Shown piece after piece: positions 17,372-62,566 of a stretch of DNA of 64,000 nucleotides. The stretch spans positions 1 through 64,000 of the forward strand of contig CAVRGP010000002.1 in the NCBI GenBank assembly GCA_963720755.1, read 5' to 3'. This DNA comes from an uncultured Chloroflexia bacterium (GTDB taxonomy: Bacteria > Chloroflexota > Limnocylindria > Limnocylindrales > CSP1-4). The notes beneath the pieces were generated by a model, which saw only the letters and a list, made by a program, of their open reading frames with translations, had not been told where the DNA came from and did not search any database. The translations under genes were made by a program, and so were the position numbers. Within the stretch, counting starts at the first letter, position 1, and each line of letters opens with the position of its first letter.

Positions 17372-17377
17372 GGGGAC

Positions 17378-17384
17378 TAGTATC
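17378..17384. promoter_or_regulatory. Overlapping divergent -10 elements
   Basis: TAGTAT (+) 7 nt before ATG 17391; GATACT (-) 7 nt before GTG 17371. Confidence 0.5.
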
Positions 17385-17390
17385 ACCGCC

Positions 17391-18500: not shown

Positions 18501-18731
18501 GGTCGCTGGTGCGGCGACGCACCAATGGTCATGCGAACGATGGGACTGCCGGGCGACACACTTGAACGACAGTTGCCGCTAGATTGAGTGTCATGCCGTA
18601 CCAAGCGAAGCCATCTGCACCCCGCGTCAGCGGATCTGCGACGAGGTCCTCCGCCGCCGTGCGCCACGATGCCACCGCTCGAGCCGCAAGGCGAGACCCG
18701 CTCGCCATGGCCGTTTGACTTGGAGCAACGC

Positions 18732-19268
18732 ATGCAGCCGGACATGCCCACTCCGTCGAATTGGTACGAGCATCGCCTTCACGGGTTGCGCGCTCACAGG
18801 GCATTCGGTCGACCGATCAGGTTCTACTTTCGCCGCCGCGAACAGGTTCTCTACCTGATGGTGGGCGCCTGGAACACGTTCTTTGGGTATGCGGTGTGGG
18901 CGATGATGCAATACTTGCTTGGCGACTACTTGAACTATCTCGTCATCCTGGTCCTCGCATGGCCGGTCGCAGTGCTGAACGCGTATGTTGGCTACCGCTA
19001 CATCGTCTTCCGTAGCGAGGGCGCGGTGCTGACAGAGTTACCGCGATTCGCGGTTGTCTACGTCGTGGCGCTAGTTGCGAACCTCGTCTTCCTCCCGATC
19101 GCCCTGCAGGTGCTGCCGTTCGAGATCTACGTCGTCCAGGCAATCGTGACGGTCCTGGTGGTCGTCGGCAGCTATCTGGGTCACAAGTACTTCAGCTTTC
19201 GGGGTGACCCGATCGTGGATTCGATCGAGTCCTTCGTCTACGAGCCGCCGGCCGAAGCCGGCGATTGA
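18732..19268 (+). CDS. GtrA family lipid-linked sugar flippase (start uncertain)
   Basis: YLMVGAWNT, four TM segments, SY.GHK.FSF; GGAG before ATG 18732. Confidence 0.8.
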   Translation: MQPDMPTPSNWYEHRLHGLRAHRAFGRPIRFYFRRREQVLYLMVGAWNTFFGYAVWAMMQYLLGDYLNYLVILVLAWPVAVLNAYVGYRYIVFRSEGAVLTELPRFAVVYVVALVANLVFLPIALQVLPFEIYVVQAIVTVLVVVGSYLGHKYFSFRGDPIVDSIESFVYEPPAEAGD

Positions 19269-20305
19269 TCGGTGGACAAGGGTCGAAAGGAACCGACGTG
19301 CCGCTGCTGACCGTCCTCACTCCTTGCTATAACGAAGAAGGCAATGTCCGCGAGGTCTATCTGCAGGTAAAGGCGCAGATGGAGACGCTGCCCGGTTATG
19401 AGTACGACCATCTGTTCATCGACAACGCCTCAACGGATCGAACGGTCTCGGTCCTGCGCGAGCTCGCCGCGATGGACAAGAACGTCAAAGTCATCGTGAA
19501 CGCACGCAACTTCGGCCACATCCGCTCTCCCTTCTATGGGTTTCTGCAGGCCCGCGGGGAGGCGGTGATGAGCTGTGTCGCCGACCTGCAGGACCCGCCG
19601 GTGCTTCTTCCCCAGTTCGTCCGGAAGTGGGAGGAAGGCTTCAAGGTCGTGATCGGAGTCAAGGCCGGCACCAAGGACTCCTGGCTCATGGCCCGGACGC
19701 GGAGGTTCTACTACGGGTTGGTTGGCAAGCTGTCATCGGACGTGGAGCTTGTCCACAACTTCACCGGATTCGGCCTCTACGATCGCGAAGTCATCGAGCA
19801 ATTTCGTGGCACAGGCGAGCAATACCCTTACTTCCGCGGTCTCGTCAGCGACTTCGGGTACGAGCGAGCTGAGATTTCCTACATCCAACCTGGCCGAAAA
19901 AGTGGTATCACCAAGAACAACTTCTTCAGCCTCTACGACATGGCGATGCTGGGAATCACCAACCATTCGAAGGTTCCCCTGCGCCTCGCGACGATGGGTG
20001 GGTTCGCCATTTCGGTGATCAGCCTCCTCGTCGCGGTCGGGTACCTCGTTGCGAAGCTGATGTTCTGGGACCAACTCCAGCTGGGCCTAGCACCGCTCTT
20101 GATCGGCATCTACTTCTTTGGTGCCGTTCAGCTGTTCTTCATCGGAGTCCTCGGCGAGTACATCGGCGCGATCCACACCCAGGTCCACAAGCGGCCACTG
20201 GTTGTCGAGAGGGAGCGGATCAATTTTGCCGAGCGCGCAAGCTCCTCGCAGCCTGGAGCGCTTCTGGAAGATCCGCGAGAGCCCGCCGCGCCTCCGTCTC
20301 GCTGA
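19265..20305 (+). CDS. GtrB/ArnC-like GT2 undecaprenyl-phosphate glycosyltransferase with two C-terminal TM helices
   Basis: PCYNEE, RNFG, ADLQDPP, S.VPLR, GEYIG.I......RP. Confidence 0.9.
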   Translation: MIGGQGSKGTDVPLLTVLTPCYNEEGNVREVYLQVKAQMETLPGYEYDHLFIDNASTDRTVSVLRELAAMDKNVKVIVNARNFGHIRSPFYGFLQARGEAVMSCVADLQDPPVLLPQFVRKWEEGFKVVIGVKAGTKDSWLMARTRRFYYGLVGKLSSDVELVHNFTGFGLYDREVIEQFRGTGEQYPYFRGLVSDFGYERAEISYIQPGRKSGITKNNFFSLYDMAMLGITNHSKVPLRLATMGGFAISVISLLVAVGYLVAKLMFWDQLQLGLAPLLIGIYFFGAVQLFFIGVLGEYIGAIHTQVHKRPLVVERERINFAERASSSQPGALLEDPREPAAPPSR

Positions 20306-21330
20306 CGTCGGTCGCGAGGGATAGGCTCCAGTCCTCAAACGGAATGACGACCGCCAGCCCCGGACCGGATCGCTTCTTGTCGTGCCGCATTGCCTCGATC
20401 ACGGCGTCCTCGTCGAGGTTCGTCGTGTCAGCGGCGGACGTCAGGATCGGGACAAACATCCGGGCAGCGAACCCATCGAGACGCGCCCGTTCGAAATCGC
20501 CGCGGTAGGACGAAACCAGGGCCGCAAGGATCATCCCCAGAACGACCCCTTGGCCATGGGGGACTGCGAAATCCGTCGCAGAATTCGATCGCGTGGCCGA
20601 AACAGTGGCCGAAGTTCAGCAGGCGTCGGTTCCCGACATCGAACTCGTCCTCCTCGACAAAACGTCGCTTGATGGTGAGTGACGTCCGAACAGCTCCGCT
20701 CACCGCTGCCGGGTCGCGTCTAGCGAGCGCCTCGATCGTTGCCTCGATCTGCGCCCGGTCGACCGGGCTCGACGCGATGTGCATCTTCACGATCTCGCCG
20801 AGCCCACTAAAGAACTGGTGGTCATCGAGGGTGGTGACGAGCGGGGAGTGAACGACCACCCGCCGCGGTGGGTTCATGGTCCCCAACAGGTTCTTGAAAT
20901 CACGGAAGTTCAGCGACGTCTTCGCGCCGATGCAGCTGTCCGCCTGCCCAAGCAGCGTCGACGGCACGTAGACCCAAGGGACGCCTCGATACATGACCGA
21001 AGCCAGGAAGCCAGTCACGTCCTGCACGACTCCACCGCCGATGGAAACCACCACGGTCCTGCGCGTTGCCCCTTGCGCGATCATCGCCTCGCAGAGGACC
21101 GTGACACCGTCGAGCGTCTTCGAATCCTCGGTTGCATCGATGAAGTGCAGGGGCCGAGCCGCCAATGGCGCCAGGGCTCCAGTGCCGTGCAGCTGCCACA
21201 CCCGCCGATCCACCACGAAGAATGCGCTCTCGAGTGCGCCTAGCTCGGTGACCCAATCGACGTCATCAGGAAAGTCCACCGCGTAGTCGCCGAGTTGTGA
21301 CCGGACGGTGAACAAATCTCCTCCGTTCAT
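20220..21330 (-). CDS. 3-dehydroquinate synthase-like sugar-phosphate cyclase (frameshift near 20560)
   Basis: IGGGVVQD, RG, PSTLLGQADSCIGAK, KNLLG, GEIVK, LNFGH..GHAIE, DKK. Confidence 0.75.
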
Positions 21331-21998
21331 CAGATAATCGAATAGCCTCCGTCGCAAACGACAGTCTGACCGGTCATGAACGAATTGCGGGCCGAAGCGA
21401 GGAACGCGACCAGTTCGGCGATCTCTTCGGGTTGTGCCATCCGCCTGAGCGGAACGCCTTGGGCGATGGCAGCGATCTCCTCTGGGCTGTTGTTCTGAGT
21501 CGTCATCTCGGTCAGGACAAAGCCTGGCGCAACCGAGTTCACGAGGACGCCCCGAGGTCCGAATTCGACCGCCATAGCGCGGGTCAGGCCGTCGAGCCCA
21601 GTCTTGGCCACGGTGTACGGGAGACGACGCTCCTTGGCGACGATCGCCCACACGGACGAGATATTGACGACGCGACCCCAACCGCGCTCGGCCATCGCCG
21701 GCGCTAGTGCCCGGGCCAGTCGAAATGGCGCGACAAGGTTTACCTCCAGCGTGTCGTGCAGCAGGTCGTCGTCCGTCTCTTCGAGTCGAGCGAGACGGTT
21801 GAAACCCGCATCGTTCACGAGGATGTCGACCGGGCCGTCGAGTCGTGCGAGGTATCGGTAGGTCGAGGCGGGGTCGGCGAGATCGAGTTCGGAGCGCGGT
21901 GGCAAAAGCACCTCGGCTCCCAGGTCCGCGAACCGCTCCGCGACAGCTCGTCCGATCCCACGTGACGCACCGGTCACGAGGGCGACCCTCCCGTTCAC
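21330..21998 (-). CDS. SDR oxidoreductase (FabG-like)
   Basis: TGASRGIG, NISS, YTVAK, VAPG. Confidence 0.9.
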   Translation of the reverse strand: MNGRVALVTGASRGIGRAVAERFADLGAEVLLPPRSELDLADPASTYRYLARLDGPVDILVNDAGFNRLARLEETDDDLLHDTLEVNLVAPFRLARALAPAMAERGWGRVVNISSVWAIVAKERRLPYTVAKTGLDGLTRAMAVEFGPRGVLVNSVAPGFVLTEMTTQNNSPEEIAAIAQGVPLRRMAQPEEIAELVAFLASARNSFMTGQTVVCDGGYSII

Positions 21999-22807
21999 TC
22001 CAGCATGCCGCCTGCCTGCTCGATGCTCCGGGCGTATCGCGCTTCCAACATCTCGATGCGCGTGCGGTCCTCCTCGAAGATCCCACCGTAGAAGTCGCGC
22101 TTGTTCTTAAGCCACATTAGCTCGAATCCGACGGCCTTGAGGATGCCCGCCTCAGCAGCGTCGTCAAGGGCGGCCGGACAGGCGAAGATCACCTTGCGCG
22201 TTTCGTAGCGATCGAGAAGATCACCAAGATCTCGCATGAAGGGCAATGCTTCCTTCGCGATCCCGCCGCCCACCGCGCATTCGAGCCCCTTGGCCTTGGC
22301 GGCCTGGAAGACCCTGCGACCGATATCGAGGATCGTGGGGCTGTTTATCTCGTCACGGTCCATGCCAAGCGACCCTGACATGTCGACTCTGCCGAGAACG
22401 ATGCCGTCCAGCTCGTCGATTTCCGGCAGCTCGAGCATCTCATCCAGGTTGTCGACTGATGTGATCGTCTCGATATTTGCGGCGAATGCAACATCGTGGC
22501 GCTCGCTCGCCGGAAAGGCCAGATGAGCAGCGGCCAGGAATTTGTGGAGCGCGTAGGCCGACTCGATCATCGGTCCCACGACACGCTCGACACCGATGAC
22601 GCGAGCCTCATACAAGTCGCGTAGCGCTTCGCCACCGCCAACCTTGATGGTCAGGCCCAGGCCAGAGGTGGACACTACGTCCTTCAGTCGCATCGCCTCT
22701 TCGATCCTTGTGCCCTCGGCCTCAAATTCGGCCTTGACCCCGGCCACGTGATGGTTCTCGCGAAGGTCCTGCAGCTGGTGGACCATCTTTCGCTCTAGCT
22801 CGTTCAC
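21995..22807 (-). CDS. HpcH/HpaI aldolase / citrate lyase family protein
   Basis: KAEFEAEG, PMIES, NIET, GRVD; SD AGGAG before GTG 22807. Confidence 0.75.
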   Translation of the reverse strand: MNELERKMVHQLQDLRENHHVAGVKAEFEAEGTRIEEAMRLKDVVSTSGLGLTIKVGGGEALRDLYEARVIGVERVVGPMIESAYALHKFLAAAHLAFPASERHDVAFAANIETITSVDNLDEMLELPEIDELDGIVLGRVDMSGSLGMDRDEINSPTILDIGRRVFQAAKAKGLECAVGGGIAKEALPFMRDLGDLLDRYETRKVIFACPAALDDAAEAGILKAVGFELMWLKNKRDFYGGIFEEDRTRIEMLEARYARSIEQAGGMLE

Positions 22808-22815
22808 GGGTGCTC

Positions 22816-24798
22816 CTAAGACTTCTTCTCGTACGGGTCGATCAACATGTTCTCCAGCAGCTCCGCGCGATCGAGCCAAGGAAACATGTCCTCAAGAGGC
22901 TTCGACATCAGCCGTCCATCCGGCAATTTCTCGGCGATCACCTTTGGTGAAAACGCCTGTTCTGGGTCCATGACGACGTCGAGTAATGACGGACCATCAG
23001 TTGCGAGCATCTCGTCGATGGCGGCACTCAACAAGGGGAGCTCGCCAACCCTGGTGGCGGGAATGCCATACGCACCCGCGAGCGCGACCATATCCGGCAA
23101 GCCGAGACCGCTCGCCACGCTCTCGCCAAATCGGTTGCCCGCGAACAGGTTGTCCTGGGTCTGGCGCATGGATAGGTATCCAGCGTTATTGAACACGAAC
23201 ACCTTGATCGGGAGCTGGTGATGGACAATCGTCTCGAGCTCCTGGACGTTCATCTGGATGCTTCCGTCCCCAGCCAGACAGATGACGCGTCGGCTCACGC
23301 CCCCCATGGACATGCGTGCACACGCGGCGCCGATCGCCGTCGGAAGGTCGTAGCCCATCCCCGCAGTGCCGGAGTTCACGATGACCTGCTGGCCCCTTTT
23401 CAAGCGCAGGGCCTGCAGGGCTGTCACGCAAGCCGAACCATTCGCAAGGACGATGACGTCGTCGGCTTCGAGATGGTCTGACAGCTCATCGACGAAGACG
23501 TAGGGGTTGATCGGCGTCTGTCGCCGCCGGTAATCCGGCAGAACGACCGGATAGCGCGCGCGCCGGTCCGCACACCAAGCGAGCCACTCCGTCCACGGTC
23601 GCGGTGGCGCGCCGTCATCGACCAACTCCCGCAAGACCCGAACGAACCAGCCGACCTCGGCTTGGATCGCCAGATCCGGCGATATGGTGGGTTTGGCCAG
23701 CTCCGCGGCATCGATGTCGACGACGACGAGGTCAGCGGCCCGGGCAAATGCCGCGAATTCGTACCCGATCTGGCGGATGTTGAGACGGCAGCCCAGCACG
23801 ATCAGAAGATCCGCATTCTGGACAGCGAAGTTCCCTGCGCGGTCTCCGATCGATCCCGGCCGCCCCACGAATAGCGGGTGGTCCTGCCACATCGCATCCA
23901 GCGCGTTCCAAGCGGTCACCACGGGCACCTGCAGGTCATCGACAAGGCATCGGAAGTCGTCGAGTGCCCCCGCGCTCCGGAGGGCCGACCCAGCCAGGAT
24001 CACCGGGCGCTGAGACGTTCGCAACTTCGCCAGGACCGACTTCGCCTGTTCGGCCGCCAGCGTCCGATCGAAGATGCCGGCAAGCGCACCTCGATCCTGC
24101 GGTGGAGTCGTCGCTGGCAGCCAGATCTCGCTCTCGGGCAGGATCTCCCCGGGCAAGGAGACGCCGGTGATGACGCTGACTTCTCGCCCCCGGATTGGGT
24201 TAACCAGGTGATCGGGCAGATCCTCGAGTTCGCGTGAGTCAAAACTGCGCAGGAGATCCGGATCGACCTGAGCCGATTGCACGTTGAGTGGCACGTCCAA
24301 CCAGACAGGCCCCGGCCGGCCGGCGCGAGCGAGGTAGGCCGCCTTCTCGAACTGGTAACGAGCCTCCTGAGGATCGGTGATCATCGCAGCGTACTTGGTG
24401 ATGGGCGCGACGATGCGGATGATGTCGCCTTCCTGATCTCCCAGCTGACGGAGCGGAAGGCCAGTGCTAGCCACTGTCGTGTCGAAGCGAACCTGACCCG
24501 ACAGGAAAAGGCCAGGGACGGAGTCGTGCCACATTCCGAGCACGCCCGTGATGGAATTGGTCCCACCAGGGCCACTGGTGACGATGGCCACCCCAAGGGT
24601 TCGCTTCGTCCGCGCATATCCTTCGGCCGCGATCGCACACGCCTGCTCATGCTGGTTGAACATGACGTCAACGTCGGGGTTCGAGCGCAGCGCGTCATCG
24701 AGGTGCATCGCACCGCCACCTGTGATGGCGAACACTCTGTCAACGCCCAGGTGTGGGAGCCGGGCGATGATGTAGTCCGCGACACGCATGGTGCTCAT
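22816..24798 (-). CDS. ThDP-dependent enzyme, acetolactate-synthase-like (YerE-type carboligase candidate)
   Basis: GGGAMHL, HEQ....AAEGY, TSGPG.TN, GPVWLDVP, GDGS...N ThDP motif. Confidence 0.85.
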   Translation of the reverse strand: MSTMRVADYIIARLPHLGVDRVFAITGGGAMHLDDALRSNPDVDVMFNQHEQACAIAAEGYARTKRTLGVAIVTSGPGGTNSITGVLGMWHDSVPGLFLSGQVRFDTTVASTGLPLRQLGDQEGDIIRIVAPITKYAAMITDPQEARYQFEKAAYLARAGRPGPVWLDVPLNVQSAQVDPDLLRSFDSRELEDLPDHLVNPIRGREVSVITGVSLPGEILPESEIWLPATTPPQDRGALAGIFDRTLAAEQAKSVLAKLRTSQRPVILAGSALRSAGALDDFRCLVDDLQVPVVTAWNALDAMWQDHPLFVGRPGSIGDRAGNFAVQNADLLIVLGCRLNIRQIGYEFAAFARAADLVVVDIDAAELAKPTISPDLAIQAEVGWFVRVLRELVDDGAPPRPWTEWLAWCADRRARYPVVLPDYRRRQTPINPYVFVDELSDHLEADDVIVLANGSACVTALQALRLKRGQQVIVNSGTAGMGYDLPTAIGAACARMSMGGVSRRVICLAGDGSIQMNVQELETIVHHQLPIKVFVFNNAGYLSMRQTQDNLFAGNRFGESVASGLGLPDMVALAGAYGIPATRVGELPLLSAAIDEMLATDGPSLLDVVMDPEQAFSPKVIAEKLPDGRLMSKPLEDMFPWLDRAELLENMLIDPYEKKS

Positions 24799-24808
24799 GC
24801 GTCGGGCC

Positions 24809-25702
24809 TCACGAGTCGAACTCGAGTCTAGCCCGGTCGATCCCCGACCGACGGTCCGCATACCACCCAAAGAGCTGATCGATGGCCACGTCCGATGGGG
24901 TGAACGTCAGCTGCGGCATCGCCTGTCGCAGTCGGGCGTTGTCAGCCGTGTACTCGGGGCCATGCCCGTCCTTGCCGACCCGCACCTTCACGTCGTTGCC
25001 TGACCTAGCTGCGACCGCGTCAGCGAGGGCTTTGAGGCTGTCGGTCGAGTCGGGACCCACGTTGTAGGCGCGATGCTCGGCGGACCCGGCCAACGCCCAA
25101 TCCACCACCGGCATCAGATCATCGATGAAGAGATAGCTGAAGCGTCGGTCCTGCCGGAGAGTGATGGGCATGTGCCAAAGAGATCGACAGATCGCGTTCG
25201 AGATGAACCGGATGCCATAGTCTTCGTATCGCCCGAAGACGCCAAATAGCCGCAGTTCGACGATCGGATGCTTGGGATCCAACGGCATTGCGTCGAGGAA
25301 TCGAGCGATCGCGTATTTCGAGAGACCGTGGTCGTCTTCGGGCACCGATCTGCCGAGAAGGGACTCAGCGACGCGAACGAGGGATTCGCGTGTGTCGTAT
25401 ACGGCGCCCGAACTGAGAAAGACGAGGGTTTCGAACCGGTCCCGATTCCGCTCGATGTTGAAGAACATCCGGAGGTTGGTCCAGATCTGGCGGGATGGAT
25501 CCTGCGCGGCGCGGTGACCAGGTCGGACGGCGCCATGAACCACGGCGTCGACGGCATGCTCACGAAACCAGGCGTTCACCGCGCGGTCGTCGGAAAGGTC
25601 GAGCTGCGAATGGCTTGGAGCAAGCACCTCATGCTCTCGCGACAGGTGCTCACTGAGGTTCCGACCGATGAAGCCGCTACCGCCCGTCAAGAGGATCCTC
25701 AT
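24809..25702 (-). CDS. NAD-dependent epimerase/reductase
   Basis: TGGSGFIG, SSGAVY, LRLFGVFG; HGLSK in place of YxxxK. Confidence 0.8.
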   Translation of the reverse strand: MRILLTGGSGFIGRNLSEHLSREHEVLAPSHSQLDLSDDRAVNAWFREHAVDAVVHGAVRPGHRAAQDPSRQIWTNLRMFFNIERNRDRFETLVFLSSGAVYDTRESLVRVAESLLGRSVPEDDHGLSKYAIARFLDAMPLDPKHPIVELRLFGVFGRYEDYGIRFISNAICRSLWHMPITLRQDRRFSYLFIDDLMPVVDWALAGSAEHRAYNVGPDSTDSLKALADAVAARSGNDVKVRVGKDGHGPEYTADNARLRQAMPQLTFTPSDVAIDQLFGWYADRRSGIDRARLEFDS

Positions 25703-25708
25703 TCAGCG

Positions 25709-26401
25709 TCACTCCCACGCATCGGTGTAGATCGACTCGAGAGGGATCCCGCGCCCGAGTAGCTGTTCCGTGAGGGTCCCGAGCATCGCTGGGGGCCCGC
25801 TGAGGTAGTACGCCGGGTCGTTCAGACTCGCAACGGCCGGCGCCGCGATGTTGGCGTCGAGGCGGCCGTCGGTTTCCTCGCAAATCAGGTGGCACGTCAG
25901 CGACGAGACCGACCCGGCGCACGCCTGGACCAGGGGGCCGTAGACGAAGAGGTCGAGTGTCCGGGCGCCGTAGAAGAGGACGACCTGCGGGGCGTTCCTG
26001 GGTGTGAGCGATTGGAGGAACGCGGTGAATGCAGTCACGCCGGTGCCGCCCGCGAACAGCACCGCGTCCCTGTGCGGGTCGATCACGAAGTCGCCATAGG
26101 GAAGCTTGGCCCACACAGTGGCGCCGGGTACCACCTCATGCTCCATCCGGGTCGTGAACCGGCCCTTGACCGCGTATGTGATCTGCAAGCGATCGCGCTC
26201 TCGCGGTGAGCTTGCGATCGAGAAGACCCTCGACTCCGGCCAGAAACCGACACCGTCGTATGGATCGATCGCGAAGTGCAGGAACTGCCCTGGTCTGAAC
26301 ATAGGAACGGGGAGCGAAGGCGCGAGTTCTACGGTGTACACGCGTTCTCCGTGATCAGTCACCGCGTCCACCAGGCAAGGGATCTTGCGAACAACGGCCA
26401 C
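25709..26401 (-). CDS. FNR-like FAD/NAD oxidoreductase (E3/DdhD-like, lacks the ferredoxin domain)
   Basis: PGQF, RVFSIAS, PYG.F, AGGTG.TAF, YGAR, SGPP.M. Confidence 0.75.
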   Translation of the reverse strand: MAVVRKIPCLVDAVTDHGERVYTVELAPSLPVPMFRPGQFLHFAIDPYDGVGFWPESRVFSIASSPRERDRLQITYAVKGRFTTRMEHEVVPGATVWAKLPYGDFVIDPHRDAVLFAGGTGVTAFTAFLQSLTPRNAPQVVLFYGARTLDLFVYGPLVQACAGSVSSLTCHLICEETDGRLDANIAAPAVASLNDPAYYLSGPPAMLGTLTEQLLGRGIPLESIYTDAWE

Positions 26402-26407
26402 CGCCGC

Positions 26408-27784
26408 TCAGCGGTCCAAGGACGCAGGTGCCGGCCGGCCGCTCGTCATGATCGTGGTCCGCTCGCCGGCCATGAAACGTCCGAACGCGTCGACGATGTA
26501 GTCCACCTGGGCATCGCTGATTCCCGGGTAGACGCCGACGAAGAACGTGTCGTTCATGACGATGTCGGTATTGGCCAAGTCGCCGACAACGCGACGTTCG
26601 ATGGGCTCGAAGGCCGGGTGACGGAGCAGGTTGCCGCTGAACAAACCGCGCGTCTCGATCCGGTTCGCCTCCAGGAACGCGGTCAGCTCCGCTCGCGTGA
26701 AGCCGGCGTCCGGCCGAACGGTGATGACGAAGGCGAACCACGACGGATCCGAGTGAGGTGGCGCCACCGGCAGGAGCAGTCGGTCCCCATACAGGCGCAG
26801 ACCATCGAACAAGCGAGCGTGATTGTGCTTGCGCGCCTCGGTGAACTGCGGAAGGCGAGGGAGCTGGGCGCATCCGATAGCGGCCTGCATGTCCGTGGCC
26901 TTCAGGTTGTAGCCCAGGTGTGTATACACATACTTGTGGTCGTAGCCGTACGGCAGGCTGCCGAACTGCTGCGCAAACCGCTTGCCGCACGTGTTGTTCT
27001 CCCCGCCCGCGCAGTAACAATCCCGGCCCCAGTCGCGGATCGAACGAGCGATCCTGGCCAACTCGTCGTCGTCGCTGACGACCATGCCGCCTTCCCCGGT
27101 GGTGATGTGGTGGGCCGGATAGAAGGACGACGTCGCCAGGTGGCCGAACGTCCCGGTGAGTCGTTCGCGGTAGGTCGACCCCAGGGCGTCGCAGTTGTCC
27201 TCGACGAACCAGAGGTCGTGGTCGTCCACGAGCTGCATGACGGTATCAAGGTCGCATGGCACGCCCAGCGTGTGCGCGAGCATGATCGCCCGAGTACGAG
27301 GAGAGACCGCCGCGCGCAACTGCTCGGGATCGGCGTTGTAGTCGCCAAGCCGGACATCGACGAAGACCGGCACGAGTCCGTTCTGCACGATCGGAGCCAC
27401 GGTGCTCGGGAAGCCCGCCGCTACGGTAATGACTTCGTCCCCGGGCTTGAGCCTGCGATTACCCAGCTTCGGCGACGTGAGCGTGGTGAGTGCCACCAGG
27501 TTGGCGGACGAACCCGAATTGACGAACAGCGCATCCGAGCGGCCCAGATAGTCGGCGACGCTGGCCTCGAACAGCTCGGTGTAGCGACTGGCCGTCAAGT
27601 AGAAATCGAGGCTCGAGTCGACAAGGAGGCGCATCTCCTCCTCGCCGAACACACGACCTGCGTAGCGCACGGGGTCCCGGTCGGCGTCGAACGGCCCCGA
27701 CGAATGGCGCTCGCGGTAATAGCGGCCCACCAGTTCGAGGATCTCCGTGCGTGTCTCGGACGCGACGTCGCGCCTGTCCGTCAA
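26408..27784 (-). CDS. rfbH: CDP-4-keto-6-deoxyglucose 3-dehydrase (E1)
   Basis: NSGSSANL, AHTLG, EDNCDALG, SFYPAHHITTGEGG (His at the Lys site), DWGRDCYC..TC, GYDHKY. Confidence 0.92.
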   Translation of the reverse strand: MTDRRDVASETRTEILELVGRYYRERHSSGPFDADRDPVRYAGRVFGEEEMRLLVDSSLDFYLTASRYTELFEASVADYLGRSDALFVNSGSSANLVALTTLTSPKLGNRRLKPGDEVITVAAGFPSTVAPIVQNGLVPVFVDVRLGDYNADPEQLRAAVSPRTRAIMLAHTLGVPCDLDTVMQLVDDHDLWFVEDNCDALGSTYRERLTGTFGHLATSSFYPAHHITTGEGGMVVSDDDELARIARSIRDWGRDCYCAGGENNTCGKRFAQQFGSLPYGYDHKYVYTHLGYNLKATDMQAAIGCAQLPRLPQFTEARKHNHARLFDGLRLYGDRLLLPVAPPHSDPSWFAFVITVRPDAGFTRAELTAFLEANRIETRGLFSGNLLRHPAFEPIERRVVGDLANTDIVMNDTFFVGVYPGISDAQVDYIVDAFGRFMAGERTTIMTSGRPAPASLDR

Positions 27785-28897
27785 GTGTCCGACCTCTCTC
27801 CGTCGTCCCGAGCCCAGACCAGCCCCGCGGTGCGGGCGTCGTGCTGGTAAGCGTGGAGTTCATCGTCGACCAGGTCGCGCGCTCGCGCAGGGGCCCGGTA
27901 GTACTCGCGGTACCAAGACGCCGTCCGCCTGACTGCGGTCGAGGGATCCCAGACCGGATCTCCATCCAAGCTGCTCTCGTGCCTTGGAACTGTCGAGGCT
28001 CAGCCGCTGGGCTTCATGTGGCTGACCTTCGGACCTAGCAGGCGTCGTCCAGGTGCCGGCGCCCCACTCCGCCAGGAATCGCTCCACGACCCAACGAACC
28101 GGCTGGTCGGACCGTTCCAGAGTAGGTCCGAAATTCCATGCTCCAGCGAAACGACGCCCGTGGCGGAGCAGCGCCGCGCCGAGCAAGAGGTACCCGGACA
28201 GAGGTTCGAGGACATGCTGCCAGGGACGGATGGCGTCCGGGTTTCGAACGAGGATGGGTTCCCCGGAGATCAGAGCTCGGACGGAATCCGGGATGATCCG
28301 ATCGGGCGCCCAATCGCCTCCGCCGATGACATTGCCGGCCCGCACGGATGCGACCGCGGCTCCGTCGGCGAAGAAACTCTCGCGATAGGCGTTGGTGACC
28401 ACTTCCGCGCCCGCTTTGCTCGCTCCGTACGGGTCACGGCCACCGAGCGGGTCTGTCTCTTGGAAGGCTTGGCCGGTCTCGCAATTCTCGTAGACCTTGT
28501 CACTGGTCACGATGACCACCGCCCGAACCGAAGGGCAGACCCGCGCTGCTTCGAGGACATTGACGGTGCCCATGACGTTCGTCTCGAATGTCTCCCGCGG
28601 CTCTTCGTATGCCCGACGGACAAGCGCTTTGGCCGCGAGATGGAAGATCACCGCCGGCTGCGCTGCCTGCACTTCGGCCCCGAGCCGGTCGCGGTCGCGG
28701 ACATCGGCAACCACATGATGGACTCGCGCCTCGAGATCCAAAGCGTCGAACAGACTAGGCTCGGTTGGCGGGTCAAGTGCGAAACCCGTGACCTCGGCAC
28801 CCATCGTCCCAAGCCAGGACGAGAGCCACGATCCCTTGAATCCGGTGTGGCCGGTGACGAACACACGGCGGCCGGCATACGTCTCAGCCAGGCGCAT
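27781..28897 (-). CDS. rfbG: CDP-glucose 4,6-dehydratase (frameshift near 27960)
   Basis: VTGHTGFKGSWL, TSDKVY, RAGNVIGGGDW, RPWQHVLEPL, WNFGP; C-terminus in ORF 27781..27969. Confidence 0.9.
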
Positions 28898-29726
28898 CCG
28901 TGGCCCCGGTGTCGCTCCGTGCATCTGCGTTGCTCCAGACCGCCCACGGCGCGGTTCCGGAGTCCCACAGAGCCTGGAGTGTGCGGACGTCGCGCAGGGC
29001 GTCCATCGGCTGCCAGAACCCGCGGTGGCGGAACGCCACAAGCTCGCCGCTGGCAGCGAGGCCTTCAAGGGGAGCGCTCTCGAACAGTGTGTCGTCGCCC
29101 TCGATGCGGTCAAGAACCGCCGGCTCGAGCACAAAGAACCCGCTATTCACCCAAGAGCCATCGCCGATCGGTTTCTCCTGGAAGGCCCGGACGCCGGGTG
29201 CGACCACGCCGCCCACCATCTCGTCAGGCTCGATCTCGAGCGATCCGAAACGCCCCAGTGGCTGAACGGCCGTGATGGTCGCCAACTTGCCGTGCGACCG
29301 GTGGAACTCAAGGAGCTTGGCGATGTCCACATCCGCGACACCATCGCCGTAGGCGAGCATGAATGTGTCATCGCGGATGTACTCGCTGACGCGCTTGATG
29401 CGCCCGCCCGTCTGCGTCTTCGGCCCCGTGTCGACTAGCGTCACGCGCCATGGCTCGGCGGCGTTCTGGTGGACCACCATCGAGTTATCACGCATGTCGA
29501 AGGTCACGTCGGACATGTGCAGGAAGTAGTTCGAGAAATACTCCTTGATCACGTAGCCCTTGTAGCCGAGGCACACCACGAAGTCGCTGAATCCGTAGTG
29601 GCTGTAGGTCTTCATGATGTGCCACAGGATCGGCCGCTCCCCGATCTCGACCATCGGCTTTGGCCGCGATGCGGTCTCTTCGGATAGGCGCGTGCCTAGA
29701 CCGCCGGCGAGGATGACGACCTTCAC
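28884..29726 (-). CDS. rfbF: Glucose-1-phosphate cytidylyltransferase
   Basis: ILAGGLGTRLSEET..PKPMVEIG, GYKG..IKEYF, TGGR, GFWQPMD. Confidence 0.95.
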   Translation of the reverse strand: MKVVILAGGLGTRLSEETASRPKPMVEIGERPILWHIMKTYSHYGFSDFVVCLGYKGYVIKEYFSNYFLHMSDVTFDMRDNSMVVHQNAAEPWRVTLVDTGPKTQTGGRIKRVSEYIRDDTFMLAYGDGVADVDIAKLLEFHRSHGKLATITAVQPLGRFGSLEIEPDEMVGGVVAPGVRAFQEKPIGDGSWVNSGFFVLEPAVLDRIEGDDTLFESAPLEGLAASGELVAFRHRGFWQPMDALRDVRTLQALWDSGTAPWAVWSNADARSDTGATDAPG

Positions 29727-29929
29727 CACTCGCCTGCTTCCCGAGCAAAGCATCGATGGACCACGACCTTAGTGTATCTGCGGTGGCGGCGTCACGGCGT
29801 CCAAGGACCTCCACGTCCGCCCGGCGGCCAGCGGAGTTGTCAGCCCCGGGACCGGCACCGCGAGCGCCGTCGCGGTTGGGGCTGGCGCGAACGCGCCCGG
29901 CCATATCCGCATCACGCATGCATAGTCCG

Positions 29930-31558
29930 TCAGCGCTTGAGCTCGTAGATCGCGATCGGGTCCGATGCGCCGACCGTGAACCGGCCCAGCAAGCGGTAGG
30001 ACCCAGAGGCGACGAGCGCGTCGACGACGCGCTTGATCTCGCGTTGCCCGCTGGGGCGCCCGCCGCGGAACATGGTCTCGTGGAAGGTCCAATCGGCGGG
30101 CGTCAGATCCATCCAGACGATGAATGTCGGCGGCTGCTGGCGGAGGGTCTCGGCGTCGCGGATTGCCAGGCTGTCGGGTGCAACGTCAAAGTAGTCGACC
30201 ACGCCGAAAGTCGGACTTGGAAGGCCGACCATCACGTTGAAGTAGTCTATGTGAGGAAAGGTGTACATCGTGTCGCCCGGTCGCTTGGTCGCCTGGACGA
30301 CGTGGTAGATCGTGTTCAGGTCGGCGGCGTAGGCGGGTGACGACCGTAGCCCGGCCAGATGGGGGTCGTCGAACGGCGTTGTCGCCGTCGACGCCGCCGG
30401 CAGAGCGTTGACGCCCCACCAGTGGTAGGGCAACGATACCCGCTGTACCACGACGCTGAGGATCAGCAAGGCGCATGCGCCGTACGCCGCGACGTCACGG
30501 GCCCGCCACCAGCTGACCCTGGCTGACAGCGCCGTCCCGATCAGCAGGGCACCCGGCAGGAGCATCGCATGCTCCTCGAGGACGCCCGACATGCCGTGGA
30601 CCCACATGAGGGTGAACGCTGCCACGGCGATCAGGAAGCGGATCGGCTCGCGACGAGCACGCCAGCACAAGATCCCGACGGCCACGAACGACACATAGAC
30701 GAGCCAGGCTCGGGCAGCCCGATCCCCCTCGATGGTGATCTCCGCTGGCAGCTCGGGCAGGCGCGTGAGAAAGCCGAAGAGCAGAGTGACGACGCTGCCT
30801 TTTGACGAGCTCCCGCCGAACACCTGCTCGAGCGCGGGTGACAGAGCCCCCGTCGCGGCGAGCACGCCCGTGGCCACCGCTATGACGGAGAGGCAAGCCG
30901 GGATGCTGGCGACGATGCGTGGACGTCGCGGCAGGAGCGCTAACCCCAGCACGAGGGGGAGGATGACGCCGGTCGACTGCTTGAAAAGGAACAGCATGCC
31001 CGATGCCAGGCCAAAGAGGATCGGCCAACGCCACCGATCCGACTCCAAGCACCGGATCGCAAGGTAGAGCACGAGGACGGAAAGGGTCATCGACGACTGG
31101 TAATAGCCGTAGAACACGTTCTGCAGGTTGGCGGATGACACGATGAAGCCAGTCAGGACCGCCACGAATGCAACCCGCAAGGGGAACAGTCGGCGAAGGG
31201 TCACGAACGTGACCGCGATGAGAACGAGACTCTCGGCGATCCCGTACAGGCGCAGGGCGAGGAACGAGTCGTTGGTCGCGACCGAGATCGCGTGCATCAG
31301 CAACGGGAAGCCGGGCGGGATGAATAGGTAGAAGTCGCGGTAGGGCACCTGGCCCGCGCTCATCCGGTTCGAGATGTCCTGGAACCAGCCCTCCGTGACG
31401 GGCACGAATGTCGTCACGAGCAGCAAGCTGAACGTCGCACAGATGACCAGGAGGGCTGCGAGGGTGAGGGTGGTGCCGGCGCCAGCCCAGGCAAGCCGCT
31501 CGTGCGCACGCTCCCCTACGCTGCCAATGGCTCCGGCTCCGCGCGTCGGCTCCGTCAC
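29930..31558 (-). CDS. GT-C-like multi-TM glycosyltransferase (GtrC-type)
   Basis: EG...G.VPYRDF...PP, FKQS.G, extracytoplasmic C-terminal domain. Confidence 0.7.
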   Translation of the reverse strand: MTEPTRGAGAIGSVGERAHERLAWAGAGTTLTLAALLVICATFSLLLVTTFVPVTEGWFQDISNRMSAGQVPYRDFYLFIPPGFPLLMHAISVATNDSFLALRLYGIAESLVLIAVTFVTLRRLFPLRVAFVAVLTGFIVSSANLQNVFYGYYQSSMTLSVLVLYLAIRCLESDRWRWPILFGLASGMLFLFKQSTGVILPLVLGLALLPRRPRIVASIPACLSVIAVATGVLAATGALSPALEQVFGGSSSKGSVVTLLFGFLTRLPELPAEITIEGDRAARAWLVYVSFVAVGILCWRARREPIRFLIAVAAFTLMWVHGMSGVLEEHAMLLPGALLIGTALSARVSWWRARDVAAYGACALLILSVVVQRVSLPYHWWGVNALPAASTATTPFDDPHLAGLRSSPAYAADLNTIYHVVQATKRPGDTMYTFPHIDYFNVMVGLPSPTFGVVDYFDVAPDSLAIRDAETLRQQPPTFIVWMDLTPADWTFHETMFRGGRPSGQREIKRVVDALVASGSYRLLGRFTVGASDPIAIYELKR

Positions 31559-31612
31559 ACGACGTGCGTGACAGTGGGTTCACGTCCTGGGCGTGGTTGC
31601 TGGAGACGGTCG

Positions 31613-33346: not shown

Positions 33347-33347
33347 G

Positions 33348-40052: not shown

Positions 40053-40190
40053 GTCTTTCGTACCAGTCGGCGGAACCGGTGCCCGGTGCTACGCTGCACC
40101 GGCTGTGAGATACCCCATCGTCCTGAGCACGCTTGGCCCCGCCCGCACGGGCGTGGGCTCGTGACGACCGCCTCGTATACTCGGACACCG

Positions 40191-41647: not shown

Positions 41648-41658
41648 TCCCCAGCGAC

Positions 41659-45239: not shown

Positions 45240-45251
45240 CGGAATCCTGAT

Positions 45252-45276
45252 CGGGGACGCGCCTGGCGCGTCCCCG
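45252..45276. repeat. Perfect GC hairpin between cpaB and cpaE
   Basis: CGGGGACGCGCC-T-GGCGCGTCCCCG. Confidence 0.6.
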
Positions 45277-45316
45277 GCCACCGCATCCACCCACCGCAAG
45301 GACCGACCAGAGCGAG

Positions 45317-46576: not shown

Positions 46577-46617
46577 CCGCACGCACCTGGCCCGTCCGGG
46601 CGAGAAGGGGGTAAACG

Positions 46618-48039: not shown

Positions 48040-48062
48040 GCTCGGGAAGGAGTACTGAACCC

Positions 48063-49071: not shown

Positions 49072-49076
49072 GACTG

Positions 49077-52362: not shown

Positions 52363-52394
52363 GCCCCGACCCCGCGCGTCGTACGATGCCGCGG

Positions 52395-60266: not shown

Positions 60267-62566
<2,300 letters not shown>

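What the first reader, a model, noticed from the sequence alone, without database searches (positions are those of the whole stretch)
20220..29726. CDP-3,6-dideoxysugar pathway extended by a ThDP carboligase, aldolase, SDR and DHQS-like cyclase: candidate branched or carbocyclic sugar
Seen: contiguous rfbF-rfbG-rfbH-reductase-epimerase-ThDP enzyme-HpcH aldolase-SDR-DHQS-like genes. Established: RfbF/G/H plus E3 give CDP-4-keto-3,6-dideoxyglucose, and YerE (ThDP) plus YerF convert it to C4-branched yersiniose. DHQS-family enzymes cyclise sugar phosphates into carbocycles, and carbocyclic higher sugars such as caryose and bradyrhizose exist in bacterial glycans. Inference: the three extra enzymes extend and possibly cyclise the branch, giving a higher-carbon or carbocyclic sugar by a route I cannot match to a characterised pathway. 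No other shikimate genes are nearby.
Basis: partly seen in the sequence, partly recalled or inferred. Interest (0 to 1): 0.78.

Follow-up and report, generated by a model that had tools for sequence, protein, structure and literature searches.

The report
Caryophyllose-type branched-sugar gene cluster
This is an operon for a rare long-branched cell-surface sugar of the kind already known from Mycobacterium marinum, and its quinate-synthase-like gene probably trims the side chain instead of closing it into a ring.

Summary
One thing was missed: the DHQS-like gene is split by a single extra base near 20581-20584. The essential atpD gene in the same window is split the same way, so an assembly error is the likelier cause.

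The gene set is not unmatched. By annotation, the M. marinum lipooligosaccharide locus carries the same genes side by side: MMAR_2329 DHQS-family, 2330 SDR, 2331 aldolase, 2332 ThDP enzyme, 2333 GT2, 2334-2336 RfbF/H/G and 2327 GT87. Genes 2331-2333 are needed for caryophyllose. A 2022 scheme already explains the aldolase, ThDP enzyme and reductase.

Only the DHQS-like/SDR pair has no assigned role. In 80 related loci from many phyla the SDR sits beside the DHQS-like gene in 76 and a ThDP enzyme in 70. A C-C-forming enzyme is present in 73: HpcH-like in 57, HMGL-like in 13 and NeuB-like in 3.

I infer that the pair removes the terminal phosphate and re-reduces the ketone left behind, which gives the side chain its terminal methyl. 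I found no evidence for a carbocycle. This is a new member of a known kind, of moderate interest.

The parts
28884..29753 (-). RfbF, glucose-1-phosphate cytidylyltransferase. The start is ATG at 29753 or GTG at 29726.
   Evidence: TIGR02623 equivalog, 421 bits against a cut-off of 300.
27860..28897 (-). RfbG, CDP-glucose 4,6-dehydratase.
   Evidence: TIGR02622, 433 bits against a cut-off of 278. ATG at 28897.
26408..27784 (-). RfbH (E1), the PMP-dependent CDP-6-deoxy-4-keto-glucose 3-dehydrase.
   Evidence: PRK15407 RfbH, 676 bits against a cut-off of 423. DegT_DnrJ_EryC1, 293 bits.
25709..26401 (-). E3-like NAD(P)H-flavin reductase of 230 aa. It has the FNR-like module only and no detectable 2Fe-2S domain.
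   Evidence: NAD_binding_1. Best NCBIfam match is PRK08051 NAD(P)H-flavin reductase at 62 bits, below its cut-off. A homologue is present in 14 of 80 related loci.
24809..25702 (-). Extended SDR of 297 aa. Its inferred role is the YerF-type reductase of the acyl carbonyl of the branch.
   Evidence: Pfam Epimerase, 88 bits. A homologue is present in 46 of 80 loci. The role is inferred from the scheme in PMC9306805.
22816..24798 (-). YerE-like ThDP-dependent carboligase.
   Evidence: TPP_enzyme_N, M and C domains. GDG...NN ThDP motif at residue 508. The best solved relatives are 8rph (388 bits) and 5ahk (230 bits), ahead of the AHAS entries. A homologue is present in 70 of 80 loci.
21995..22807 (-). 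Divergent HpcH/HpaI-type class II pyruvate aldolase of about 270 aa.
   Evidence: Pfam HpcH_HpaI, 37 bits against a cut-off of 25. AlphaFold model with pLDDT 94. The best folds are HpaI, SwHKA and YfaU aldolases, TM 0.54-0.58. A homologue is present in 57 of 80 loci. Relatives are 270-271 aa long.
21330..21998 (-). Compact classical SDR of 222 aa, the partner of the DHQS-like gene.
   Evidence: adh_short_C2, 173 bits. It lies directly upstream of the DHQS-like gene in 76 of 80 loci. Its stop overlaps the DHQS-like start.
20220..21330 (-). DHQS-like gene of the sugar phosphate cyclase superfamily, read in two frames.
   Evidence: The N-terminal part scores 290 bits on TIGR04425 and 190 on aroB; the C-terminal part scores 58 and 30. 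Frames are shown.
20578..20585 (-). Site of the single-base frameshift in the DHQS-like gene.
   Evidence: The window has one extra base relative to L001, L003, L005 and L002.
19265..20305 (+). GT2 glycosyltransferase of the ArnC/PgfS type, a polyprenyl-phosphate sugar transferase. Convergent with the operon.
   Evidence: Glycos_transf_2, 88 bits. PgfS 181 bits and ArnC 112 bits, both below their cut-offs. A homologue is present in 32 of 80 loci. MMAR_2333 is annotated as GT2.
18588..19268 (+). GtrA-family membrane protein, a putative flippase for the lipid-linked sugar.
   Evidence: GtrA_DPMS_TM, 53 bits. GtrA families recur in related loci.
17358..18500 (+). GT87 (GT-C) membrane glycosyltransferase.
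   Evidence: GT87, 33.5 bits against a cut-off of 25. GT87 is also found next to the cassette in L053 and L057. MMAR_2327 is annotated as GT87.
29930..33436 (-). Two PMT_2-type GT-C glycosyltransferases upstream on the same strand (29930-31558 and 31817-33436).
   Evidence: PMT_2, 38 and 30 bits.

Best explanation
The nine genes form one operon for a CDP-activated 4-C-branched 3,6-dideoxyhexose of the caryophyllose type.

Established chemistry: RfbF, RfbG and RfbH, with a flavin reductase, turn glucose-1-phosphate into CDP-4-keto-3,6-dideoxyglucose.

Published scheme (Steitz et al. 2022), applied here by homology and gene context:
- The HpcH-type aldolase joins pyruvate to a small sugar aldehyde to give a 4-hydroxy-2-oxo acid.
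- The YerE-like ThDP enzyme decarboxylates that acid and adds it to the C4 keto group.
- The YerF-like extended SDR reduces the acyl carbonyl.

My inference concerns the DHQS-like enzyme and its coupled SDR. I propose that they make the terminal methyl of the side chain.
- The DHQS-like enzyme uses DHQS chemistry: transient NAD+ oxidation followed by beta-elimination of the terminal phosphate.
- Its most likely substrate is the aldol product of pyruvate and erythrose-4-phosphate, which is a stereoisomer of DAHP.
- The SDR then reduces the ketone left behind.
- The result is a linear 3,7-dideoxyheptulosonate, which serves as the ThDP donor. No ring is closed.

The GT2, GtrA and GT-C (GT87, PMT_2) genes around the operon then load the sugar on a polyprenyl phosphate, flip it and attach it outside the membrane. 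This step is also inferred.

The broken DHQS-like frame is more likely an assembly error than a dead gene.
For: 1. The three CDP-sugar genes score above curated cut-offs.

2. The ThDP enzyme's two best solved relatives are 8rph and 5ahk, ahead of all AHAS entries. From memory, these are the YerE-like enzymes JanthE and PpYerE.

3. The M. marinum LOS locus carries the same functions side by side. The DHQS-family, SDR, aldolase and ThDP genes are MMAR_2329, 2330, 2331 and 2332, the same order as in the window. GT2 is 2333, RfbF, RfbH and RfbG are 2334-2336, and GT87 is 2327. Knock-outs of 2331-2333 lose caryophyllose, and MMAR_2332 takes 4-hydroxy-2-oxo acids.

4. In 80 loci from other genomes, the following lie next to the DHQS-like gene:
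- SDR in 76
- ThDP enzyme in 70
- HpcH-like in 57
- YerF-like in 46
- RfbG in 45, RfbH in 44, RfbF in 43

5. Where the HpcH-like gene is missing, another C-C-forming enzyme stands in: HMGL-like in 13 loci and NeuB/PseI-like in 3. The best NCBIfam match of the HMGL-like proteins is 4-hydroxy-2-oxovalerate aldolase. In total 73 of 80 loci have one such enzyme.

6. Two loci point to 3-deoxy-2-ulosonate (phosphate) intermediates. L067 has KdsB-like and PseF-like cytidylyltransferases beside the SDR, DHQS-like and HMGL-like genes and no ThDP enzyme. L069 has a KdsC/KDN-9-P-phosphatase-like gene beside the DHQS-like gene.

7. The DHQS metal, phosphate and carboxylate motifs are invariant in 18 of 18 family members: DSxxGxKT, KN, ExxK, IK, RxLLNxGHxFGHAIE, HG and DKK. 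The assignment of roles to these residues is recalled, not tested.

8. No kinase family recurs among the gene clusters seen in 5 or more loci. The phosphorylated substrate should therefore be a common metabolite.

9. The caryophyllose side chain has been synthesised from a digitoxose-configured, 2,6-dideoxy acid. It therefore ends in a methyl group, and by my inference its last two stereocentres match D-erythrose.

10. On the frameshift: atpD in the same window is also split into two frames.
Against: - No enzyme of this DHQS-like family has been assayed, so phosphate elimination without cyclisation is inferred only.
- As I recall, the DHQS elimination product cyclises readily to dehydroquinate. 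A linear product needs fast trapping or a different hydride route.
- The order of steps is open. The pair could act on the sugar phosphate before the aldolase does.
- The equivalence with MMAR_2329-2331 rests on annotation and gene order. No mycobacterial sequence was compared, and none appeared among the 80 kept loci or the listed protein hits.
- M. marinum has a 'putative sugar kinase' (MMAR_2328) beside its DHQS-family gene. This cassette has no counterpart.
- L058 and L069 lack the classical SDR.
- L063 has both an HMGL-like gene and an HpcH fragment, so the replacement is not strictly exclusive.
- The DHQS-like protein is markedly more diverged from its closest relative L001 (72%) than its neighbours are (83-90%). 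That would also fit decay.
- The E3-like reductase has no Fe-S domain.
Confidence: 0.6

Rival explanations
1. The DHQS-like enzyme and the SDR act before the aldolase. They eliminate phosphate from a small aldose phosphate such as erythrose-4-phosphate and reduce the resulting ketone. This gives an omega-deoxy aldehyde, which the aldolase then joins to pyruvate. The final sugar is the same; only the order differs.
For: Steitz et al. draw the caryophyllose donor as pyruvate plus a free aldehyde '28' and give no origin for that aldehyde. The chemistry acts on the same four carbons in either order. The DHQS-like/SDR pair is the most constant unit (76 of 80 loci), while the C-C-forming enzyme varies.
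Against: The residues that I recall binding the DAHP carboxylate in DHQS are invariant in the family. That fits a 2-oxo-acid substrate better. A KdsC-like ulosonate-phosphate phosphatase in L069 implies phosphorylated ulosonates. Erythrose-4-phosphate cannot form the ring that DHQS-type enzymes bind (my own knowledge).
Confidence: 0.2
2. The DHQS-like enzyme is a true cyclase and closes a carbocycle in or on the branch, giving a carbocyclic higher sugar.
For: The protein belongs to the sugar phosphate cyclase superfamily, and the DHQS catalytic motifs are intact. The best NCBIfam model is named a 'cyclizing' phospholyase. If the phosphorylated acid itself were the ThDP donor, the branch would be a DAHP analogue that could cyclise.
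Against: A DHQS-type ring closure uses the C2 keto group, so the product could no longer serve as a ThDP donor. The sugar linked to the annotated equivalent gene set in M. marinum, caryophyllose, has an open-chain, methyl-terminated side chain. The DHQS-like gene also occurs with CMP-ulosonate cytidylyltransferases and without a ThDP enzyme in L067. The conserved carboxylate-binding motif argues for a small acid and not a CDP-sugar (roles recalled).
Confidence: 0.08
3. The DHQS-like gene in this genome is a true pseudogene. The cluster then either makes a different branch (phosphorylated, hydroxylated or shorter) or is inactive.
For: A single-base frameshift sits at codon 250. The protein is only 72% identical to L001 while its neighbours are 83-90%. 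The window copy is 4 points further from L003 than L001 is.
Against: The essential atpD gene in the same window carries the same kind of single-base frameshift, which points to assembly errors. All 62 invariant family columns are kept in the window's N-terminal part (the window sequence was part of that alignment), and the HG and DKK motifs are kept in the C-terminal part. L001's intact copy is also fast-evolving.
Confidence: 0.1
4. The DHQS-like gene is the housekeeping aroB and sits next to the sugar genes by chance.
For: It scores 190 bits (N-terminal part) on the aroB model.
Against: The window gene and 8 of 8 intact relatives fall below the aroB cut-off: 240-263 bits for the relatives against 305. 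All score higher on TIGR04425. The gene is linked to the SDR in 76 of 80 loci and to the ThDP enzyme in 70 of 80 across many phyla. No shikimate gene is in the window; the EPSP-synthase-family gene at 58253-59596 is MurA.
Confidence: 0.02

Closest known systems
Caryophyllose part of the Mycobacterium marinum LOS locus (MMAR_2327-2336)
   Same: By annotation it has the same set of functions: a 3-dehydroquinate synthase family protein, a short-chain dehydrogenase, an aldolase/citrate lyase family protein, a ThDP-binding protein, GT2, G1P cytidylyltransferase, RfbH, CDP-glucose 4,6-dehydratase and GT87. The DHQS-family, SDR, aldolase and ThDP genes are in the same order as in the window.
   Different: The host is an uncultured high-GC bacterium whose closest relatives for this cluster are Ca. 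Limnocylindrales MAGs. There is no sugar kinase like MMAR_2328. An E3-like reductase and a YerF-like gene lie inside the operon. No sequence comparison with the mycobacterial proteins was possible. The product is unknown.
Yersiniose A pathway (YerE/YerF, Yersinia pseudotuberculosis)
   Same: The CDP-4-keto-3,6-dideoxyglucose acceptor, a ThDP carboligase and a reductase of the branch carbonyl.
   Different: Yersiniose uses pyruvate directly and gives a C2 branch. It has no aldolase, DHQS-like gene or classical SDR.
Erwiniose cluster (ErwE/F/I/J, Pectobacterium atrosepticum)
   Same: An aldolase makes a 4-hydroxy-2-oxo acid that a YerE-like enzyme couples to the keto sugar.
   Different: The aldolase is of the BphI type and is paired with an acetaldehyde dehydrogenase. 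The branch is C4. No DHQS-like gene is described. The HMGL-like proteins found in 13 related loci are the nearer analogue of ErwI.
3-dehydroquinate synthase (AroB) and other sugar phosphate cyclases
   Same: The fold family, the NAD and metal motifs and the DAHP-binding motifs are conserved. The best solved relatives are DHQS entries such as 3okf at 154 bits.
   Different: Scores fall below the aroB cut-off. The family has its own invariant residues (DSC, GHC, K-x-H, DEFD, HGQ). It is always found in sugar clusters. Cyclisation is unlikely, by inference.
NCBIfam TIGR04425, 'AroB-related putative sugar phosphate phospholyase (cyclizing)'
   Same: It is the best-scoring model for the window gene and for 8 of 8 relatives.
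   Different: All score below its cut-off of 400: 342-398 bits for the relatives, and 290 plus 58 for the two window pieces. The model is a hypothetical equivalog with no tested function.

Membership tests
CDP-3,6-dideoxyhexose pathway (RfbF/RfbG/RfbH/E3) | RfbF, RfbG and RfbH equivalogs score above curated cut-offs | tested here: met
   421 against 300, 433 against 278 and 676 against 423 bits.
CDP-3,6-dideoxyhexose pathway (RfbF/RfbG/RfbH/E3) | An E3 reductase with both a 2Fe-2S domain and an FNR-like flavin/NAD module (definition recalled) | tested here: not met
   Only NAD_binding_1 and Fre-like matches were found in a 230-aa protein; no Fe-S domain was detected. A homologue occurs in only 14 of 80 related loci. 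Another electron donor may serve.
YerE-like ThDP carboligases for acyl-branched sugars | Three ThDP-enzyme domains and a GDG...N cofactor motif | tested here: met
   TPP_enzyme_N, M and C. GDGSIQMN...NN at residue 508.
YerE-like ThDP carboligases for acyl-branched sugars | Closer to YerE-like enzymes than to acetohydroxyacid synthases | tested here: met
   8rph scores 388 bits and 5ahk 230 bits, against 222 bits or less for AHAS entries. That these two entries are YerE-like enzymes is recalled.
YerE-like ThDP carboligases for acyl-branched sugars | Couples a 2-oxo acid to CDP-4-keto-3,6-dideoxyglucose | not testable with these tools
   This needs an enzyme assay.
Caryophyllose-type cassette (M. 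marinum MMAR_2329-2336) | DHQS-family, SDR, aldolase and ThDP genes adjacent, with RfbF/G/H and GT2 | tested here: met
   M. marinum annotations are from supplement tables S1-S3 of PMC12395582.
Caryophyllose-type cassette (M. marinum MMAR_2329-2336) | Sequence-level orthology to MMAR_2329, 2330 and 2331 | not tested
None was among the 80 kept loci or the named hits.
Caryophyllose-type cassette (M. marinum MMAR_2329-2336) | The product is caryophyllose | not testable with these tools
   This needs a glycan structure.
3-dehydroquinate synthase AroB (TIGR01357) | Score at or above the curated cut-off of 305 bits | tested here: not met
   The window pieces score 190 and 30 bits. Eight of 8 intact relatives score 240-263 bits.
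3-dehydroquinate synthase AroB (TIGR01357) | Shikimate-pathway context | tested here: not met
   No shikimate gene was found among the window ORFs scanned. The EPSP-synthase-family gene is MurA, 489 bits against 393.
TIGR04425 AroB-related phospholyase | Score at or above the curated cut-off of 400 bits | tested here: not met
   The window pieces score 290 and 58 bits. Relatives score 342-398 bits. It is the best model but sits below its threshold.
Sugar phosphate cyclase superfamily | DHQ_synthase N- and C-terminal domains with conserved metal and NAD motifs | tested here: met
PF01761 at 109 bits and PF24621 at 60 bits.
HpcH/HpaI class II pyruvate aldolases | Pfam membership and the TIM-barrel aldolase fold | tested here: met
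   37 bits against a cut-off of 25. The family profile hits only HpcH/HpaI aldolases in the PDB, weakly, at E 2e-4. The model (pLDDT 94) best matches HpaI, SwHKA and YfaU at TM 0.54-0.58.

The most novel reading that the evidence does not exclude
The DHQS-like protein founds a widespread, uncharacterised branch of the sugar phosphate cyclase superfamily that does not cyclise. With its dedicated SDR it acts as a phosphate-eliminating deoxygenase on DAHP-like 3-deoxy-2-ulosonate phosphates. The mechanism would be either DHQS-like elimination with immediate ketoreduction, or hydride return to the terminal carbon as in sugar 4,6-dehydratases. The product would be an omega-deoxy ulosonic acid. This would explain the terminal methyl of caryophyllose-type side chains. 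It would also feed CMP-activated deoxy-ulosonic acids in organisms such as Selenomonas (L067).
Probability: 0.4. Interest if true: 0.65.

Novelty: new member of a known kind. Interest (0 to 1): 0.45.

Why it matters
Long-branched 3,6-dideoxy sugars such as caryophyllose sit on the surface glycolipids of M. marinum and in some Gram-negative O-antigens. How their side chains are made is only partly worked out.

This window shows that the whole cassette is not a mycobacterial oddity. The pattern scan found 275 relatives of the DHQS-like protein among species-representative genomes. The 80 best come from MAGs or isolates labelled Chloroflexota, Actinomycetota, Planctomycetota, delta-proteobacteria, Elusimicrobia, Melainabacteria, Firmicutes, Spirochaetes and one Micrarchaeota archaeon.

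It also singles out the two genes that the published scheme leaves without a role, the DHQS-family enzyme and its SDR. The proposed function can be tested with purified proteins. If it holds, it adds a non-cyclising activity to a textbook cyclase family and lets side-chain structure be read from gene content.

Tried and rejected
Papers I could not read:
- Sarkar 2011 (PMC3133064) and Rombouts 2009 (PMC2742863) are not held.
[quoted passage not shown] Either may already discuss the DHQS-like gene.
- bioRxiv supplements are closed.

Literature searches for a published link between YerE-type clusters and DHQS-like enzymes:
- 6 papers held at least 4 of the 5 terms; by their listings, none held both 'dehydroquinate synthase' and 'branched sugar'.
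- 0 papers.
- 4 papers, unrelated judging by title and abstract.
- 1 review.
- 'dehydroquinate' occurs 0 times in the supplement of PMC9306805. I saw no DHQS-like gene in parts 1-2 of 3 of its text, which cover the whole body.

Search for a named mycobacterial homologue:
- None was among the 120 listed hits for the DHQS-like protein or the aldolase.
- None was among the members of the 8 clusters looked up (Thermoleophilia only).
- None was among the 80 loci kept out of 275.
- Sequence-level orthology therefore stays unchecked.

Not done:
NCBIfam scores were used instead.
- The search of protein representatives, complex prediction, the protein-atlas search and the third homologue search were not used.

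Readings considered and rejected: a housekeeping aroB, a carbocycle-forming cyclase, and a programmed frameshift (no supporting feature; atpD is broken in the same way).

Coordinate slips (stop codons in the requested stretch) and a malformed search term were corrected and resent.

Full report
**Observation.**
- RfbF, RfbG and RfbH score above NCBIfam's curated cut-offs: 421 against 300, 433 against 278 and 676 against 423 bits.
- They are followed by a 230-aa flavin reductase with only an FNR-like module, then a 297-aa extended SDR.
- Next comes a three-domain ThDP enzyme with a GDG...NN motif.
- The last three are an HpcH_HpaI protein (37 bits against a cut-off of 25), a 222-aa classical SDR and a DHQS-like gene.
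- Genes abut or overlap. The SDR stop and the DHQS-like start form ATGA, and the HpcH stop and SDR start form GTGA. This is one operon.

The DHQS-like frame is broken.
- Codons 1-250 end with GHCFGHAIE. The rest of the protein, including the HGQ-VV-GM and DKKR motifs, continues in another frame down to the stop at 20220.
- An alignment with four relatives shows one extra base in the window at that point.
- The essential F1 beta subunit gene atpD is split the same way near 60728-60750. One piece matches profile positions 2-312 and the other 346-462, in different frames.
- Two single-base frameshifts in 64 kb, one of them in atpD, make an assembly error the likelier cause. I cannot settle this without reads.
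- Against an artefact: the DHQS-like protein is only 72% identical to its closest relative, L001, while the four neighbouring proteins are 83-90% identical. L001's intact copy is also fast-evolving, however.

**What the DHQS-like gene is.**
- Its best NCBIfam model is TIGR04425, 'AroB-related putative sugar phosphate phospholyase (cyclizing)'. The window pieces score 290 and 58 bits. The aroB model gives 190 and 30.
- Eight of 8 intact relatives score 342-398 bits on TIGR04425 (cut-off 400) and 240-263 on aroB (cut-off 305).
- They are therefore neither AroB nor bona fide members of that model, which is itself only a hypothetical equivalog.
- The best solved relatives are DHQS entries, for example 3okf at 154 bits.
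- The motifs that I recall as binding the metal, phosphate and carboxylate in DHQS are invariant in 18 of 18 aligned family members. The family adds invariant residues of its own: DSC, GHC, K-x-H, DEFD and HGQ.
- There is no shikimate context. The EPSP-synthase-family gene at 58253-59596 is MurA.

**Related loci.**
- A pattern scan of species-representative genomes found 275 relatives of the DHQS-like protein. The best 80 were kept.
- By record title they are MAGs or isolates of Chloroflexota, Actinomycetota, Planctomycetota, delta-proteobacteria, Elusimicrobia, Melainabacteria, Firmicutes, Spirochaetes, Alphaproteobacteria and one Micrarchaeota archaeon.
- I ran tblastn with the window proteins, requiring E at most 1e-8 and an HSP covering at least half the query. 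Hits per 80 loci were:
  - SDR 76, ThDP enzyme 70, HpcH-like 57
  - YerF-like 46, RfbG 45, RfbH 44, RfbF 43
  - GT2 32, E3-like 14, GtrA 11
- Many loci are short contigs, so these counts are lower bounds.
- Loci without the HpcH-like gene carry another C-C-forming enzyme. Thirteen have an HMGL-like protein of about 535 aa, whose best NCBIfam match is 4-hydroxy-2-oxovalerate aldolase at 84-91 bits, below its cut-off. Three have a NeuB/PseI-like synthase.
- Together 73 of 80 loci have one such enzyme. The other seven (L012, L023, L025, L029, L065, L074, L080) are mostly short contigs. L063 has both an HMGL-like gene and an HpcH fragment at its contig end.
- This non-orthologous replacement says that the conserved job is to join pyruvate or PEP to an aldehyde, giving a 4-hydroxy-2-oxo acid.
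- Two loci add detail. L067 (Selenomonas ruminantium) has KdsB-like and PseF-like cytidylyltransferases next to the SDR, DHQS-like and HMGL-like genes, and no ThDP enzyme. L069 (Treponema) has a KdsC/KDN-9-phosphate-phosphatase-like gene next to the DHQS-like gene. Both point to 3-deoxy-2-ulosonic acids and their phosphates as intermediates.
- I clustered 990 neighbouring ORFs. Among the clusters seen in 5 or more loci, none carried a kinase domain and two had no Pfam match.

**Literature.**
- Steitz et al. 2022 (PMC9306805; I read parts 1-2 of 3, which is all of the body text) give a unifying scheme. An aldolase makes a functionalised 2-oxo acid. A YerE-like ThDP enzyme (ErwE, MMAR_2332 or MyGE) couples it to CDP-4-keto-3,6-dideoxyglucose. 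A YerF-like enzyme reduces the branch carbonyl.
- In that work ErwE refuses pyruvate, which argues against extension after branching.
- The paper cites knock-outs of MMAR_2331, 2332 and 2333 that fail to add caryophyllose.
- I saw no DHQS-like gene mentioned in those parts, and 'dehydroquinate' occurs 0 times in its supplement.
- The supplement tables of PMC12395582 (rows found by search) annotate the M. marinum locus as follows:
  - MMAR_2327: GT87
  - MMAR_2328: putative sugar kinase
  - MMAR_2330: short chain dehydrogenase
  - MMAR_2332: ThDP-binding protein
  - MMAR_2333: GT2
  - MMAR_2334: G1P cytidylyltransferase
  - MMAR_2335: RfbH
  - MMAR_2336: CDP-glucose 4,6-dehydratase
- This is the window's gene set, with the DHQS-family, SDR, aldolase and ThDP genes in the same order. 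The match is at the level of annotation only; no mycobacterial sequence could be compared.
- Searches for any paper linking YerE-type clusters with DHQS-like enzymes found none.
[quoted passage not shown] I could not see that survey.

**Mechanism: what is established and what is published.**
- The route from glucose-1-phosphate to CDP-4-keto-3,6-dideoxyglucose is established chemistry. The RfbF, RfbG and RfbH identities are shown here.
- The sequence aldolase, then ThDP coupling, then YerF-type reduction is the published scheme. It is applied here by homology and gene context.
- The ThDP enzyme's best solved relatives are 8rph and 5ahk, which I recall as the YerE-like enzymes JanthE and PpYerE.
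- The aldolase model (pLDDT 94) matches class II pyruvate aldolases at TM 0.54-0.58.

**Mechanism: what I infer.**
- The DHQS-like enzyme and its SDR create the terminal methyl of the side chain.
- The caryophyllose side chain has been synthesised from a digitoxose-configured 2,6-dideoxy acid. It is therefore a 2,6-dideoxyhexanoyl unit.
- By my inference, its last two stereocentres match carbons 2 and 3 of D-erythrose-4-phosphate.
- Pyruvate plus erythrose-4-phosphate gives a DAHP stereoisomer, which is exactly the substrate type of DHQS.
- Phosphate elimination by DHQS chemistry, followed by ketoreduction by the SDR, would give 3,7-dideoxyheptulosonate, the donor that the published scheme needs.
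- Ring closure would destroy the 2-keto group that a ThDP donor requires, so I do not expect a carbocycle.
- The reverse order, with the pair acting on the aldose phosphate before the aldolase, is the main rival.

**Delivery.**
- A convergent GT2 of the ArnC/PgfS type, a GtrA protein and a GT87 lie next to the operon, and two PMT_2 genes lie upstream.
- The first 37 kb of the window hold eight GT87, four GT2 and three PMT_2 genes in all.
- GT2, GtrA and GT87 recur beside the cassette elsewhere and in M. marinum.
- I infer transfer of the sugar to a polyprenyl phosphate, flipping across the membrane, and attachment outside the membrane by GT-C enzymes.

**Verdict.**
- The cluster is a new member of a known kind.
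- Its remaining interest lies in the untested DHQS-family/SDR pair, which is conserved across many phyla.

Noticed in passing
window 60270-61680, minus strand; junction near 60728-60750: The F1 ATP synthase beta gene atpD is split into two frames by a single-base shift. The pieces match profile positions 2-312 and 346-462. This suggests indel errors in the assembly.
   Followed up: yes
window 1-37000: This is a large envelope-glycan island. It holds eight GT87 genes, four GT2, three PMT_2 (a fourth is at 52386-53612), a GT4, a UDP-glucose dehydrogenase, an epimerase and a GNAT/FemAB-like acetyltransferase. That is an unusual density of GT-C enzymes.
   Followed up: partly
L067:5827-10773 (Selenomonas ruminantium): The SDR, DHQS-like and HMGL-like genes stand next to KdsB-like and PseF-like cytidylyltransferases with no ThDP enzyme. 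The product may be a CMP-activated deoxy-ulosonic acid and not a branched sugar.
   Followed up: partly
L055 (Candidatus Micrarchaeota archaeon MAG): An archaeal MAG carries the cassette: RfbF, RfbG, RfbH, HpcH-like, SDR, DHQS-like and ThDP genes. This is either horizontal transfer or a binning artefact.
   Followed up: no
window 20220-21330 compared with L001:4238-5300: The DHQS-like protein is 72% identical to L001 while the YerF-like, ThDP, HpcH-like and SDR neighbours are 83-90% identical. The gene evolves faster in both lineages of this clade.
   Followed up: partly
window 58253-59596, minus strand: This EPSP-synthase-family gene is MurA (489 bits against a cut-off of 393) and not AroA. 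The window therefore holds no shikimate gene.
   Followed up: yes
window 44346-50009, plus strand: A Tad/Flp pilus gene set is present: RcpC/CpaB, a CpaE-like response-regulator ATPase, a CpaF-type T2SSE ATPase and a TadB/C-like T2SSF protein. Two-component regulator genes precede it at 40086-42960.
   Followed up: no
window 22816-24798, residues about 180-245 of the ThDP enzyme: The ThDP enzyme is about 660 aa. It has an extra acidic, proline-rich stretch between the N-terminal and middle domains compared with its best solved relative. Close relatives L001-L006 have a similar length (653-658 aa).
   Followed up: no
M. marinum MMAR_2328 (supplement of PMC12395582): A 'putative sugar kinase' lies directly beside the DHQS-family gene in M. 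marinum. It has no counterpart in the window or in the recurrent gene families of the 80 loci. It may supply a phosphorylated substrate there.
   Followed up: no
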